A DNA stretch of 64,000 nt from Octopus sinensis (GCF_006345805.1 NC_042998.1:8804001-8868000); one strand, 5' to 3'; shown: positions 3,015 through 54,000, numbered from the stretch's first letter. Program-made: numbers and translations. Notes: generated by a model not told the origin, from the letters alone.

Positions 3015-6000
3015 CTAGAAACAAATAAGACAGGGACAGACATTAAAGAAAATTATGAATAATTCAAATTTAATCAATATATATATATATATATATATAT
3101 ATATATATGTGTGTGTGTGTGTGTGAATATATATATATAACGTGCTATAATACAATGTATATCTATACATATAAATTGGACATGGGCGATTCTTTCCTGT
3201 ATATTTTCTTGTCTTGGGATTCACGGTCAAACAGCTGGATGGAATTGCGCGAAAAATTAATGTGTAGAATGAGCCGGTGGTGTTGCTTGGCTTTGTGTTT
3301 CTTCCGTAGCTCCCATGGTTACCGAGATAATTGTATCTATATGCTTGGCTTTTCTTATCATTTTATCCCGCAATGGTAAATATTTATTGGAGACAACTCT
3401 GAAAATATTTTATCTTATTATTTCCCTTAATTTTGGTATTCGCTCTTCTCCATTGTATTTATTTAAATCTGATCGAACAGATTAAGTTTTTATCTTTTCA
3501 AAAATAATTAGTAGTTATCGATCAGCAATCACTCTTATTTATCGTTTTCACTGCACTCACCGTTCTTTTACAAAAAATGACGTGATGCAATGCTGCTTCA
3601 TAAGGATAATATGAACACGCTACTCCACACACACACAGACTATTACATACACACACACACATAAATATATGTTCACGCATACTGAGAAACGTATGCGCGC
3701 GTTCACACATACATACATACATGCACACTCATGATTATATACCCATACGCAAGCATATGGATGTACGCTTGCGCACCTTCACCTTAAACATTCTACAGTA
3801 CATCCAAGTGCACCCCAATTATTAGGAGACCCCCATTTAATAGGGAAGCCTCACATACTGACATACCACATCTGGTATTTGTTCATGGAAGAATTCAATC
3901 TTGTCCGTGTCTGTTTAACTACAACGTTTCCTGCTCCGCTGAACTAAATATAGAGGCCAGCGGAAAACCCCAAAACTTCCTGAGCTTCTAAGGAATCCTT
4001 ATAAGGAGCGCAAATCCACACAGGCATACACTTTATAATTGTAAGTAAGTATGCATGAGAGTGCAAGCAGCTTACAATAATGAACTTTTACTTATTATCT
4101 TTTTGTTGTTTTGCTTTTTGAAAATTTCATTTATTTCTTTCAATTTTTGTTTAATTTTTTGATTTTTATTGAATCTTGGTTGTATTGTTTTTTTTTGTTT
4201 TTTGTTTTTTTGTTGGTTAGTTATTTTTAGCGTTTTGACAGAAAAATGTCATTCTAAAATTGTTTTTTAACGTAAGCGTGCCCAAGCAAGTCGAATGCTT
4301 ACACAGAGCGGGTTTTACAGCCACATCATCCAATCTGCTAGTTTTAACATAAAGTACATACAAATTTAATCAATCTGAGAAAGTTAATAGAAATTATTCA
4401 TGGTTTTTTTTCTACTGCGCGGCGAAGTCAGGTAATTATTGTCGAGGCTCGTTTGTGACCGACTCAACATTTATTTGGGTCAAGGACGTTTACTGCTTGA
4501 AAATTAAATTAAATTAATAATTGTTTTCTCAAATTCTAAAGACATCATATTTGCCAATAAGCAATACCTTATTAAATGGCAGGATATCAAACGAATCTTT
4601 CTCGAACGCGTTGCTTATATTGAATATTCTAGCGTCAGGTTTCCAAATAAACTGTCTTATACCCGTCTAATGCCCGTCGGTCCGGCTAGTCTTATAAAAT
4701 TATGATTCAATGTGAAAATATTTCATTATTGTTGTTGTCGCTGTTGTTGTTGCCTTTGCACAGCTTCTAACGCTAGAGATATACTACGGTGTTAGCTGTT
4801 CACTACCAGTGAACTAAGATAACACCTCTTATTTTTCGAGCACCTTCCGGAGTATTCGAGCGGTTCCAAGCAGTGCTGTTTTCTGCAAGTGCTCCACCCT
4901 TATTGCAGCCCCTGTATGCATAAATATAGCACACATGTGAACGTGTCTATCAGATGTGACACATTGCCGGTTACAATACACATAGGCATTCTTTTAGCCT
5001 ACAAATGATGTCACGCCCGATGGCTAGGTGAGCCCCTGACAGAAAGTGGGGGCTGGAAGAATGTGGGACTGAAAAACACAGCGTGCTGCCCAATCTGGGA
5101 ATCAGAACGTAGATCTAGCAATAGTGAGTGCAAAACTTAAGCATTTGGCCACGCTCCTTCACAAAAGAATAGCTGTGTGTGTGTGTGCGTGTGTGTGTGT
5201 CTGTGTGTGATTATGTTTGAGTATGCATACATACATACATACATACATACATACATACATACATACATACATACATTCATATATATATGCACATACATAC
5301 GTTTATATATAAATACATATGTATGTGTGAGCATATGAATTTATATATATATATATATATGAATATAAAAAGTAAAAGTAAAAAGTAAAAGAATCAAAAA
5401 GAAGAGTAAGTCAAGTTAGGCAGCTTTTTAATCCCTACTAATATATCGATACATACAGATGCTCGTATATGCAGGATTTGAAGTTAAATTTAAATAACTT
5501 TTTGTAACGAATTACCTGTATAAGAAGATCTATATGTATCCCCTCAGGCGATACTCAGTTGGTGTCCCCGTTAAGTAATTCTAGATTTCCATGCTACAGC
5601 ATCCATTACGACTAGAATTGGTAGCATATCATACGAATACTACCGGCTATTTGGGGAATTCTAAGGGTGAACGAGCTCTATTTGTACTCGTATACGTTCT
5701 TAATAGAACACACCTCAACTGACTATATATGAATATATATACTTATATATATATTGATAAAACGGTAAGATAACAAAAGAAAGAAAGAACCTCAATATTA
5801 TGTAAATAGAGGAAATTTATCTATACAATAATATGTTACTTTACTCGGTAGTCAAGATAAAACTCTGAGTTTCAGATGCCGAAGTGGAAATCCACAACAC
5901 CATCTCTTCGGTTATCTGGCTATTTGAAAACGCTAGGAAAAAATACCGTTAAATAAAGGGAAATTACTGTCTTATAACTCTGCTTGCCTGCGTACTTATA

Positions 6001-51000: not shown

Positions 51001-54000
51001 TCTCCCTAGGCTTCGATTTTGTGTTCCAAATTTCATTATGATCGGTGCAGTAGTTTTCGAATGTATAAGTAATACACGAACACATAAAGACATTGTCTTT
51101 GATATAATAAATATGATTGTACACATATACATACATGTATATATATATGTATATACATATGTGTGTGTGTGTGTGTATGTGTTATATATATATATATATA
51201 TATATATATATATATATATATATATATTTATTATATAGAAGGAGCTTCTACAGGACTAGAACTGTTTCATTCAAGAGAAATCTTCAGGAAGCTAGTTAAC
51301 AAGAATTGTATTGGCATTTATACATTTAGGCAGGTTTAAAGGGGTGTTGGTGGGGGACTTTTTGGGGGTAGGCATAGCGCAAAATATCATACTTGGGGGA
51401 GTGGTCAAGGAGTCAGTGTTAAATTAGATAGAAGAATAAATAAAAAATAAAAAAATATATATATATAAAAAAAGGGAATAGAGTTTTAGGTAAATAAGGG
51501 GATTCTCACTTATACCTATGCACATATGTATACATATATACACACACATACAAACATATATACATATACAAACACACATACATACACACACACATATATA
51601 TACATATATATACACTTACCCATACATATACATATCTACACATACACATATATGTATACATACACACACTCACATGCATACACGTATACACATATGTATA
51701 TATACACACACGACCACACATACATATACACACAGAAAAATATATATACACATACACACACATACTCACATACACGCATACACACACATATCCACACACA
51801 CACATGCACACACAGCACACTAGTCCCTATATACACATATATACACATACACACATATATATACACACACATACATATACATACATATATATATATATAT
51901 ATATATATACATATGTGACCTATGCATACCTACACATACACATATATATACACATACAATACAGACCCATTCCCTAATTTTAATTTTATTATCTTCATTT
52001 ATTACTTTTGTTATCTTTGACCGCTGGTCACAAACATCTTGGCTATGACAGCCAGTCCATTTATCTGTCTACTGGAAAACAAGCACTCATTCACTCACGC
52101 ACACTCTTTAGCACGTACACTCACTCATTCGTACACTCATACACATACACGCACGCACGCGTTATATTCATACATACATACATCTACATACATTCACGTA
52201 TATACACATACGTACGCGTACCTACAGATTCATGTCTACATTCTTAGAGGGCTAGTCTATACATATACACCAATAAATATAAATACACACACATACATAT
52301 ACACCTACATACAAATACATACATGTATATATATATATATATATATATATATATATATATATATTCACATATATATACACATATATATATATATATACAT
52401 ACACACATACACATATATACATATATATACACACATACACATACATACATATACACACATACACATACATACGTATACATACATACATACATCCATACAT
52501 CCATACATACATACATTTATACACATACACACACCCACACGTATACATATACATACATATATATACGCGCATGCATACACATACAAATACACATATATAT
52601 ATATATATATACATACACACACATACATATACATACATACATATACAAATATACGCACACACATACATACATACTCATATACACATACACGCACATACAC
52701 ATGTACATGCGTACCCGTACACACACACACACACACGCGCATCCATATATACACATAAGTACACACATGCGTAAAAGTATACATATATCTATGCTTACAC
52801 ATACACACACACACACACACGCGCCTCCTTATATTCATACTTACATGCATACTCAAAAAATAAGTAAATAGTAAAATATATATACGCGCAGTTATTCATA
52901 CATGCATACTCAAAAAATAAATAATAAATATTAAGTATATGTACGTGCAGTTTATATATATATATTTTTTTATTTTTTTATTTATTCTTCTATCTAATTT
53001 AACACTGACTCCTTGACCACTCCCCCAAGTATGATATTTTGCGCTATGCCTACCCCCAAAAAGTCCCCCACCAACACCCCTTTAAACCTGCCTAAATGTA
53101 TAAATGCCAATACAATTCTTGTTAACTAGCTTCCTGAAGATTTCTCTTGAATGAACAGTTCTAGTCCTGTAGAAGCTCCTTCTATATAATAAATTAATTT
53201 TACTCTGCTATGTATGAGTACCTTATTTACTGTGGTTAACCCCGAATCAACCCGGGACCTACATATATATATATATATATATATATATATATATATATAT
53301 ATATACACACACACAAAATTAAATTGATAGATACAACTGAGTGGGCAAACAAAAATATGAGACACAGCGTAGTGCTTTTTTATGTTGATAAGTCTGGTAC
53401 TTATTTATCAGTTTCTTCTTATGAACCAGTAAGTTATGGGGATGTAAATAAACGAACAGCAGTTGTGAAGCAGTGATGAGGGTGAAACACAGAAACAAAA
53501 GTCACACACATACATTTAAATATATACATACATATATATACGATTGATATCTTTAAGTTTCTGTCTACGAAATCCATATATATATATATATATATATGTG
53601 TGTGTGTGTGTGTGTGTGTGTATGTATGTATGTATGTATGTATGTACACACACACACACATACACACACACACACAAAGATAAATTGTGTGGGCAAATAA
53701 AAATATGAGATACTGCCTAGTGGTTTGTTTTGTATTTTGATAAGCCTGGTACTTATTCTATCAGTTTCTTCTTGTAAAACCAGTAAGTTATGGGGATGTA
53801 AATAAACGAACACCAGTTGTGAGGTAGTGATGAGGGAGAAACACAAAGACACACACACACAGACTTACATATATATACATACATATATATACGATTGATT
53901 TCTTTCAGTTTCTGTCTACAAAATTCACTGACAAAGCTTTAGTTGGTCTGAGGCTATAGCAGAAGGCACATGCCAAGTCACCACACAGTGGGACTGAACC

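What the first reader, a model, noticed from the sequence alone, without database searches (positions are those of the whole stretch)
5855..53177. At least nine type I hammerhead ribozyme motifs in the introns of one gene
Seen: CTGANGA...GAAA...TH cores with pairing stems at 5855, 7527, 11990, 13085, 27001, 30911, 33654, 51243 and 53128, from about six distinct sequence families. Established: Penelope-like elements and retrozymes carry type I hammerheads, often with short palindromic stem III (here CAATTG, TGGCCA, CATATG) that work as dimers. Five motifs lie on the minus strand, three with intact cores (11990, 30911, 51243), so they are transcribed sense within the receptor pre-mRNA and could cleave introns co-transcriptionally.
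Basis: partly seen in the sequence, partly recalled or inferred. Interest (0 to 1): 0.7.

Follow-up and report, generated by a model that had tools for sequence, protein, structure and literature searches.

The report
Transposon-borne hammerhead ribozymes in octopus introns
Nine self-cleaving-RNA motifs really do sit in the introns of one octopus membrane-protein gene, but they look like ordinary baggage of Penelope-type jumping genes, and the copies facing the gene's direction are probably silenced or broken.

Summary
The nine type I hammerhead motifs are real. Five have intact cores: a strict descriptor finds 5, against 0.01-0.03 in shuffles. Four carry a core lesion. All nine are intronic in a minus-strand octopus gene for an Ig-like single-pass membrane protein (O. 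sinensis LOC115232395 match).

They are seven insertions from six families, each flanked by (TA)n. Two lie downstream of Penelope-like RT and/or GIY-YIG remnants; six show the inverted 5'-truncated copy known from Penelope-like elements. The density is about what the 6.83% PLE content of O. vulgaris predicts.

Cleavage of the host pre-mRNA looks unlikely. Orientation is unbiased (5 of 9 sense). The two intact sense family-A copies are transcribed after their own 96-99.5% complementary arm, which costs the hammerhead fold 84-93 kcal/mol. The third intact sense copy has a dimer-type stem III and no partner in the window. No cleavage or RNA data could be obtained. Verdict: ordinary transposon cargo, new members of a known kind.

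The parts
5856..5916 (-). Hammerhead C, degenerate (U4>C, stem II base out of register), H17 at 5861; sense to the host gene; about 210 nt downstream of a GIY-YIG ORF
6123..6524 (-). C-terminal GIY-YIG endonuclease remnant of a Penelope-like element; CxxC..E..N..CxH pattern; a rearranged inverted copy lies at 6498-6652
   Evidence: Pfam GIY-YIG E=0.0027, below cutoff; tblastn 39% identity, E=4e-20 to P0005; inverted arms
5745..6654 (-). Insertion C: 5'-truncated PLE 3' end with inverted 5' piece, between TA runs
7528..7618 (+). Hammerhead B, intact core, palindromic stem III, H17 at 7612; antisense to the host gene
6676..6769 (-). Inverted 5'-truncated copy of B holding only the 3' half of the hammerhead (no first core box)
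   Evidence: 96.9% identity
6676..7763 (+). Insertion B: head-to-head inverted ends, extension on the right end only, (TA)n on both sides; no PLE coding match found
11990..12040 (-). Hammerhead A1-sense, intact core, U-U at base of stem II, H17 at 11996, 1070 nt before the next acceptor; covered by the antisense arm
13085..13135 (+). Hammerhead A1-antisense, C3>A; its complement is the masking arm in the pre-mRNA
11978..13220 (.). Insertion A1: about 190-nt inverted terminal arms (96.4%), microsatellite-rich non-coding interior, about 70-nt extension on the right end only, (TA)n on both sides
27001..27084 (-). Hammerhead D, one base missing in the first core box, palindromic stem III, H17 at 27007; sense to the host gene
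28060..29835 (-). 5'-truncated PLE ORF: RT (YRDD), Asn-rich insert, C-terminal GIY-YIG; one in-frame stop near 29675; ends about 980 nt upstream of hammerhead D, and about 410 nt of that gap is an unrelated repeat
26795..29884 (-). Insertion D (boundaries set at the TA runs)
30910..30988 (-). Hammerhead E, intact core, G10.1-C11.1, 6-nt pseudo-palindromic stem III (dimer type), H17 at 30917, 5744 nt before the next acceptor; sense; single copy in the window
30651..31442 (-). Insertion E: inverted 5'-truncated piece (31385-31456) plus partial tandem (31240-31384 repeats 30694-30839, 95%), (TA)n on both sides
33654..33735 (+). Hammerhead F, intact core, long stem II, palindromic stem III, H17 at 33730; antisense to the host gene
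33286..34215 (+). Insertion F with 5' inverted segment (33357-33413 / 33530-33586); boundaries set at the TA runs
51243..51293 (-). Hammerhead A2-sense, intact core, H17 at 51249, 6025 nt before the next acceptor; covered by the antisense arm
53128..53177 (+). Hammerhead A2-antisense, GAA for GAAA (possible assembly indel)
51238..53262 (.). Insertion A2: 198-nt inverted arms (99.5%), 87% identical to A1, extension on the right end only, (TA)n on both sides
2967..59415 (-). Host gene: Ig-like single-pass membrane protein. Coding exons 59415-59373, 45226-45182, 42550-42303, 32774-32677, 25173-25014, 20024-19927, 16376-16241, 14011-13889 (transmembrane), 10925-10875, 3014-2967; continues left of the window
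   Evidence: tblastn 94-100% core matches to O. sinensis LOC115232395 X2 (P0003) and to P0001 for exons 1-2; splice sites (donors of exons 5 and 7 read); Ig/CD2-like atlas lead at 0.88-0.90

Best explanation
The motifs are the type I hammerheads that Penelope-like retrotransposons (PLEs) carry in their 3' pseudo-LTR. Seven independent, mostly 5'-truncated or non-autonomous PLE-type insertions landed in (TA)n microsatellites of this gene's long introns.

Steps: (1) inferred from the literature: in the source element the hammerhead, usually as a dimer through its palindromic stem III, trims the transposon transcript. (2) Inferred: PLE RT and endonuclease insert 3' pieces at (TA)n, often with an inverted 5'-truncated copy. 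(3) Shown in sequence: the pieces here hold the hammerhead, inverted arms, one-sided extensions and TA flanks. (4) Shown: 4 of 9 cores have decayed. (5) Predicted by folding, not measured: in the host pre-mRNA the two intact sense family-A copies zip onto their own earlier-made antisense arm, and copy E lacks a dimer partner. The introns are therefore rarely cut and host splicing is little affected. The motifs are passengers, not regulators of the receptor gene.
For: Coding links: C and D lie sense and 3' of GIY-YIG or RT-GIY-YIG remnants, the position listed for truncated PLEs in Table S1 of PMC4209133.

Architecture: inverted 5' pieces in 6 of 7 insertions, all but D. Partial tandem in E. 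One-sided extension in A1, A2 and B. TA runs at 14 of 14 ends (D, F and the left end of C were placed at the runs, so these are circular). This is the architecture described in PMC8557442 and PMC3846280. Opposite-strand hammerhead pairs 100-700 bp apart are reported in PMC4209133.

Selection on the ribozyme in the source lineage: A1 and A2 differ at 2 of 51 hammerhead positions, both free ones (N7 and loop II), against 24 of 132 upstream (Fisher p=0.016).

Density: PLEs cover 6.83% of O. vulgaris, 190 families. That gives about 4-9 fragments per 64 kb if fragments are 0.5-1 kb (my assumption); 7 were seen.

Masking: the hammerhead fold costs +84 to +93 kcal/mol with the antisense arm present, against +4 to +7 without it. 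No strand bias.
Against: Five of 7 insertions (A1, A2, B, E, F) gave no significant PLE protein match, so their PLE origin rests on architecture alone.

In both A pairs the sense copy is the intact one and the antisense copy is the broken one, the opposite of purging (n=2).

The A 3' extension is as conserved as the hammerhead (4 of 86), so the conservation signal is not specific to the ribozyme.

Family A has a 4-bp stem III and may cleave as a monomer; an axolotl hammerhead with the same U-U stem II base gave 22% cleavage in 1 h (PMC7229834).

Long-range pairing over 0.8-1.5 kb is a thermodynamic prediction; proteins could prevent it in vivo. The folding model ignores tertiary contacts and I ran no positive control. 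The seven insertions span 10,078 nt, over twice the 4.4 kb average PLE share. Retrozyme copies are reported as depleted from Xenopus introns, which suggests intronic copies can be costly.
Confidence: 0.85

Rival explanations
1. PLE-derived but active in the host: one or more intact sense copies cut a meaningful share of pre-mRNA before the next exon is made, lowering or tuning receptor mRNA as the intronic CPEB3 ribozyme does.
For: 3 intact sense cores; both A pairs keep the sense copy intact. Sites lie 1.1, 5.7 and 6.0 kb before the next acceptor; CPEB3 acts at 9.9 kb with a 2-3 min half-life. Family A has a monomer-capable stem III.
Against: The antisense arm is made first and covers the whole motif. 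E is dimer-type and single. Minimal PLE hammerheads are weak in vitro. A slow intronic hammerhead left splicing intact. A2 arms are 99.5% identical, so the insertion is young or recently converted.
Confidence: 0.08
2. Families A, B, E and F are solo copies of non-LTR retrozymes whose tandem, circRNA-producing masters lie elsewhere in the genome, rather than direct PLE ends.
For: No coding match in these five insertions. The A unit is about 290 nt, in the retrozyme size range. Solo retrozyme monomers are dispersed in Xenopus, and retrozymes are argued to derive from PLE pLTRs.
Against: No head-to-tail array with a hammerhead in each unit among 143 TRF rows or in the self-blast. The arrangement is inverted with a one-sided extension. 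Loops II are 46-60 nt in B, D, E and F, unlike the compact canonical retrozyme hammerhead. This rival overlaps the best explanation.
Confidence: 0.1
3. The motifs are chance matches in AT-rich repetitive DNA.
For: No Rfam hammerhead hit. Predicted monomer fold probabilities are low. The descriptors were tuned after seeing the motifs.
Against: 5 observed against 0.01-0.03 expected; position downstream of PLE endonuclease ORFs; only free positions vary between A1 and A2. Chance remains plausible only for the extra candidate at 57386.
Confidence: 0.01

Closest known systems
Hammerheads in the pLTRs of metazoan Penelope-like elements (Cervera and de la Pena 2014, PMC4209133)
   Same: Type I topology, short palindromic stem III, position 3' of truncated PLE ORFs, mostly solo copies, opposite-strand pairs a few hundred bases apart, many families per genome.
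   Different: Most motifs here lack the extra base before a G10.1-C11.1 pair of the minimal consensus; loops II are long (46-60 nt in B, D, E, F); family A has a 4-bp stem III with an 8-nt loop and a U-U stem II base. Octopus did not occur in the one supplement file searched.
Hydra clade of C-terminal EN+ PLEs (Craig et al. 2021, PMC8557442)
   Same: RT then C-terminal GIY-YIG, CxxC and CxH around the conserved E and N, canonical hammerhead, (TA)n targets; homolog P0005 carries RWK and CxCX5C.
   Different: The window copies are 5'-truncated; D lacks the CxCX5C linker and has an Asn-rich insert; no phylogeny was run.
Adineta vaga Penelope families (Arkhipova et al. 2013, PMC3846280)
   Same: Head-to-head inverted pLTRs, tail on one end, Asn-rich inserts between RT and EN, long spacer before the 3' pLTR, unrelated DNA between pLTRs.
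   Different: Different host and families; target-site duplications cannot be read here inside (TA)n.
Metazoan non-LTR retrozymes (PMC7229834; bioRxiv 10.64898/2026.07.22.740005)
   Same: Type I hammerhead in a non-coding unit of a few hundred bases; a U-U stem II base as in axolotl HHR_Amex2.
   Different: No tandem array here; copies are inverted or single.
Host-acting intronic ribozymes: CPEB3 (PMC10919898) and the ultraconserved amniote intronic hammerheads (title seen in reference lists only; details recalled)
   Same: A self-cleaving motif in sense inside a long intron, kilobases before the next exon.
   Different: Those are single, conserved loci; these sit inside recent repeat insertions, on both strands, and 4 of 9 are broken.

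Membership tests
Type I hammerhead ribozyme | Intact core boxes CUGANGA and GAAA, A15.1-U16.1 pair, H17 | tested here: met
   5 of 9 motifs; not met in the other 4
Type I hammerhead ribozyme | Three helices around the core with helix I open | tested here: met
   Stem I 5-7 bp, stem II 3-7 bp, stem III hairpin or palindrome; no type II or III topology found
Type I hammerhead ribozyme | Active fold favoured as a monomer | tested here: inconclusive
   Constrained fold costs 2.0-7.6 kcal/mol in short context at 20 C; no tertiary terms, no positive control
Type I hammerhead ribozyme | Loop I-loop II tertiary contact of canonical fast hammerheads | not tested
   Not modelled
Type I hammerhead ribozyme | Site-specific self-cleavage | not testable with these tools
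   Needs in vitro or RNA-end data
Type I hammerhead ribozyme | Match to an Rfam hammerhead model | tested here: not met
   0 hits at gathering score; none in the best 150 of 273 at E<=10
Penelope-like element (C-terminal EN+) | RT followed by GIY-YIG endonuclease in one ORF | tested here: met
   D has both; C has the endonuclease only
Penelope-like element (C-terminal EN+) | PLE coding remnant in insertions A1, A2, B, E, F | tested here: not met
   No significant tblastn or profile match; these are filed only as PLE-type non-coding ends
Penelope-like element (C-terminal EN+) | Hammerhead 3' of the ORF, same strand | tested here: met
   C about 210 nt and D about 980 nt downstream
Penelope-like element (C-terminal EN+) | Partial tandem and/or inverted 5'-truncated copy, optional one-sided tail | tested here: met
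   Inverted piece in 6 of 7; partial tandem in E; one-sided extension in A1, A2, B
Penelope-like element (C-terminal EN+) | Target-site duplication | tested here: inconclusive
   All ends lie in TA runs
Penelope-like element (C-terminal EN+) | Dispersed multi-copy family in the genome | not testable with these tools
   No octopus genome on hand; two A insertions in the window, and Octopus homologs P0004 and P0008 of ORF D
Hydra clade PLE | CxxC and CxH flanking conserved E and N in the endonuclease | tested here: met
   Seen in C and D in the alignment; definition
Hydra clade PLE | CxCX5C linker before the endonuclease | tested here: not met
   Absent in D (translation); truncated away in C
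Hydra clade PLE | N-terminal RWK and DKT motifs | not testable with these tools
   Both window copies lack the N-terminus
Hydra clade PLE | Placement in the clade by RT phylogeny | not tested
   No labelled reference set; Hydra-like is a lead only
Non-LTR retrozyme | Head-to-tail tandem units, each with a hammerhead | tested here: not met
Non-LTR retrozyme | Abundant monomer circRNA | not testable with these tools
   No RNA data
Host-acting conserved intronic ribozyme | Sense orientation with intact core | tested here: met
   3 of 9 motifs
Host-acting conserved intronic ribozyme | Free to fold in the pre-mRNA as a monomer | tested here: not met
   By prediction only: A1 and A2 are masked; E has no stem III hairpin
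Host-acting conserved intronic ribozyme | Conserved at the orthologous intron across species | not testable with these tools
   No cephalopod genome collection

The most novel reading that the evidence does not exclude
The fold-back family-A elements are self-masked intronic ribozyme switches. The inverted arm locks the sense hammerhead in a roughly 190-bp duplex, which lets intact ribozymes persist inside genes. A-to-I editing or a helicase (editing of intronic repeats is widespread in squid) could loosen the duplex and release cleavage in some tissues. That would cut the receptor pre-mRNA in intron 1 and in the intron after the transmembrane exon, and possibly allow re-ligation or circularisation of the piece between the cuts by RtcB. 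This would be a transposon-made link between RNA editing and ribozyme-driven transcript control in cephalopods.
Probability: 0.04. Interest if true: 0.75.

Novelty: new member of a known kind. Interest (0 to 1): 0.22.

Why it matters
As most likely read, it matters little. It adds six octopus hammerhead families that Rfam misses, and shows how densely PLE ends can pepper cephalopod introns. My two searches naming octopus with hammerhead (5 papers each, 4 listed) showed no paper devoted to octopus hammerheads; a giant squid genome paper lists 235 hammerhead-1 matches.

One point is worth keeping. The PLE habit of inserting an inverted copy can silence a sense ribozyme in cis. This predicts that intact sense hammerheads in introns should be enriched for masked or dimer-dependent forms, which one genome scan can test. 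If cleavage of the host pre-mRNA were shown, the locus would be a rare natural case of several transposon ribozymes acting on one gene.

Tried and rejected
Rfam at both thresholds gave no hammerhead.

Minimal-hammerhead and type II/III scans found nothing beyond E and F.

A tenth candidate at 57386(+) scored 25.6. It was set aside as probably chance: its second box has two extra A's, and its 3' half is coding sequence of a decayed RT remnant. The first-box match at 16336(-) lies in a host exon, and the one at 26407(+) overlaps a weak PLE RT match (E=0.053).

An endonuclease C-terminus seen by eye upstream of E (about 31200-31100) was not supported by the profile search and is not used.

The ORF pair at 34947-36454(+) near F could not be tied to F or to PLEs. 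The first ORF has 538 unnamed homologs; a GLKF-type motif search matched 0 of the 150 listed. The second ORF had 0 hits among 11 candidates and no similarity to P0005. Its likeness to a PLE N-terminus is recalled, not shown.

Pfam gave no Ig family for the host protein. The cluster-member look-up could not be made, so isoform and accession lists were not seen.

No octopus genome, transcriptome or read set was available, so copy number, orthologous conservation and RNA ends stayed unchecked. The bacterial genome scan was not used as irrelevant. One supplement file of PMC4209133 and the bioRxiv supplements were not seen; they may list cephalopod hammerheads.
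Full report
OBSERVATION. All nine motifs were found where stated. A strict type I descriptor returned 5 hits: 7534(+), 12034(-), 30981(-), 33659(+) and 51287(-). Block dinucleotide shuffles gave means of 0.010-0.030, max 1 in each set of 200, and 300 permuted decoy cores gave a mean of 0.003. Both descriptors were written after I had seen the motifs, so the nulls flatter them. The four broken cores are 5911 (U4>C and stem II register), 13091 (C3>A), 27078 (one base lost in box 1) and 53134 (one A lost in box 2). 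Rfam gave nothing at gathering score and no hammerhead in the 150 shown of 273 weak matches. No type II or III topology and no further minimal motif appeared.

HOST GENE. One exon used as query found 3 proteins among 9 candidates, all Octopus. P0003 (O. sinensis LOC115232395 X2) matches eight minus-strand exons at 94-100% in its core hits, and the related P0001 supplies exons 1-2. The gene runs from 59415 to beyond 2967. It encodes a signal peptide, repeated Ig-like segments, a transmembrane helix and a tyrosine-bearing tail; Ig/CD2-like is an atlas lead at 0.88-0.90, not a Pfam match. All nine motifs are intronic; about 1.07 kb of the 56 kb span is coding, so an intronic position is the default.

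WHAT CARRIES THE MOTIFS. The self-comparison resolves nine motifs into seven insertions. Family A is two inverted pairs, 96.4% and 99.5% identical within a pair and 87% between pairs, so each pair is one event. Between families only (TA)n-type matches were found, giving six families. C lies about 210 nt downstream of a GIY-YIG remnant. D lies about 980 nt downstream of a 5'-truncated RT-GIY-YIG ORF with an Asn-rich insert and one stop. Both are on the same strand as their ORF. Their endonucleases show the CxxC..E..N..CxH pattern given for the Hydra clade, but D lacks the CxCX5C linker and no tree was made, so the clade is a lead. A1, A2, B, E and F gave no significant coding match. Six of seven insertions have an inverted 5' piece, E is also a partial tandem, A1, A2 and B have a one-sided extension, and all 14 ends abut TA runs (the ends of D and F and the left end of C were placed at the runs). 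This is the published PLE pattern: inverted 5'-truncated copy, tail at one end, (TA)n targets (PMC8557442); head-to-head pLTRs, Asn-rich inserts, long spacers (PMC3846280); hammerheads 3' of truncated ORFs and in opposite-strand pairs (PMC4209133). PLEs cover 6.83% of O. vulgaris, or 4-9 fragments per 64 kb if fragments are 0.5-1 kb (assumed). Seven is ordinary, although their summed span, 10,078 nt including microsatellite interiors, is over twice the average. A1 and A2 differ at 2 of 51 hammerhead positions, both free, against 24 of 132 upstream (p=0.016); the 3' extension is equally conserved (4 of 86), so this marks the element's 3' end as a whole.

WOULD THE PRE-mRNA BE CUT? Sense copies are C, A1, D, E and A2; C and D are broken. 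Orientation is unbiased (5 of 9; 3 of 5 intact; p=1.0, little power). For A1 and A2 the polymerase first makes the complement of the plus-strand copy, 0.8 and 1.5 kb earlier, and about 130 nt of the duplex can form before the hammerhead emerges. In folds of the whole insertion, and of transcripts ending at the hammerhead, all but one of its 51 bases pair with that arm; forcing the hammerhead costs 84-93 kcal/mol at 20 C, against 4.0 and 6.5 in short context. E has no stem III hairpin alone but a -6.6 kcal/mol homoduplex, and no second copy in the window, so it needs a partner in trans. These are predictions without tertiary terms or a positive control. Published data point the same way. A minimal PLE hammerhead showed no cleavage alone and low cleavage as dimer. 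Slow intronic ribozymes left splicing intact while fast ones did not (passages citing Fong 2009 and Dye 2006). Against my reading: in both A pairs the sense copy is the intact one; family A has a real stem III and resembles an axolotl motif that cleaved 22% in an hour as a monomer; distances to the next acceptor (1.1, 5.7, 6.0 kb) are of the order of the CPEB3 case (9.9 kb); and retrozyme copies are reported depleted from Xenopus introns.

MECHANISM. Shown: motifs, lesions, strands, intron positions, insertion anatomy, PLE coding links for two insertions. Inferred from the literature: function in processing PLE transcripts, dimer action, insertion at (TA)n. Predicted: masking of A1 and A2, dimer dependence of E. 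Not obtainable here: any cleavage, expression, copy number or cross-species conservation.

COMPARISON AND NOVELTY. The motifs work like, and for C and D belong with, PLE pLTR hammerheads; A, B, E and F are PLE-type non-coding ends by architecture only. They fail the tandem test for retrozymes and lack the marks of host-acting intronic ribozymes. Two searches pairing octopus with hammerhead listed no dedicated study; the library lacks most subscription papers. Verdict: new members of a known kind, interest 0.22. The boldest reading not excluded is an editing- or helicase-gated self-masked ribozyme switch (probability 0.04); ligation of ribozyme-cut RNA is known to me from engineered systems (listing only; otherwise recalled).

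PAPERS SEEN. PMC4209133: parts 1-3 of 4, supplement file 2 searched and part 1 of 3 read, file 1 not seen. bioRxiv 10.64898/2026.07.22.740005: part 1 of 5 and passages; supplements closed. PMC8557442: abstract, passages, section 11. PMC11167929: part 1 of 4. PMC7229834: passages and discussion. PMC13282606: passages, section 6, one supplement table row. PMC3846280, PMC10919898, PMC2995048, PMC9068888, PMC6962438: passages. PMC13685140: search listing. Fong 2009, Dye 2006 and the ultraconserved intronic hammerhead paper: only as cited in these. Hammerhead numbering and core rules are partly recalled.

Noticed in passing
window 42550-42303 (-): Exon 3 of the host gene is 248 nt and shifts frame near 42495 relative to P0001 and P0002; the RefSeq isoform P0003 starts downstream of it. 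Assembly indel or true lesion.
   Followed up: partly
window 10925-10875 (-): P0003 carries the 17-residue tail segment twice, but the window has only one such exon; a second copy may be missing from this assembly or belong to a near-identical locus.
   Followed up: partly
window 32774-16241 (-): Exon pairs 4/6 and 5/7 are internal duplicates; related genes exist in O. sinensis and O. vulgaris, so this looks like a small, variable octopus Ig-like receptor family with cytoplasmic tyrosine motifs.
   Followed up: no
window 34670-36454 (+): A 123-bp, 98% perfect hairpin next to (TA)n precedes an ORF with 538 unnamed homologs and a second frame whose start resembles a PLE N-terminus (recalled, unconfirmed). 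Possibly the 5' part of a two-ORF element.
   Followed up: partly
window 57378-57465 (+): Tenth hammerhead-like match with an 8-bp stem I, overlapping a decayed RT remnant; probably chance.
   Followed up: yes
window 1-273: 81.5% match to the A1 interior (12792-12515), the best non-self hit though microsatellite-rich; another family-A element may lie just left of the window.
   Followed up: partly
window 16602-17213 and 53997-54301: Further inverted repeats of 108 bp (100%) and 57 bp (93%) without a hammerhead hit; possibly more fold-back insertions.
   Followed up: no
window 7660-7690 and 13185-13205 (+): The extensions of B and A share a short GGTTAAC-centred palindrome.
   Followed up: no
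window 8015-9470, 23144-24000, 36605-38900, 39121-40753, 45703-46754, 62767-64000: Other mobile elements: RT-bearing LINE remnants, an LTR-type integrase remnant (by eye), a Tc1-type DNA transposon with 229-bp inverted ends, and a CCCH-finger ORF.
   Followed up: no
window 34290-34345 (+): A short island between TA runs holds a GGCC-GAAA stretch like the 3' half of hammerhead E but no first core box.
   Followed up: no
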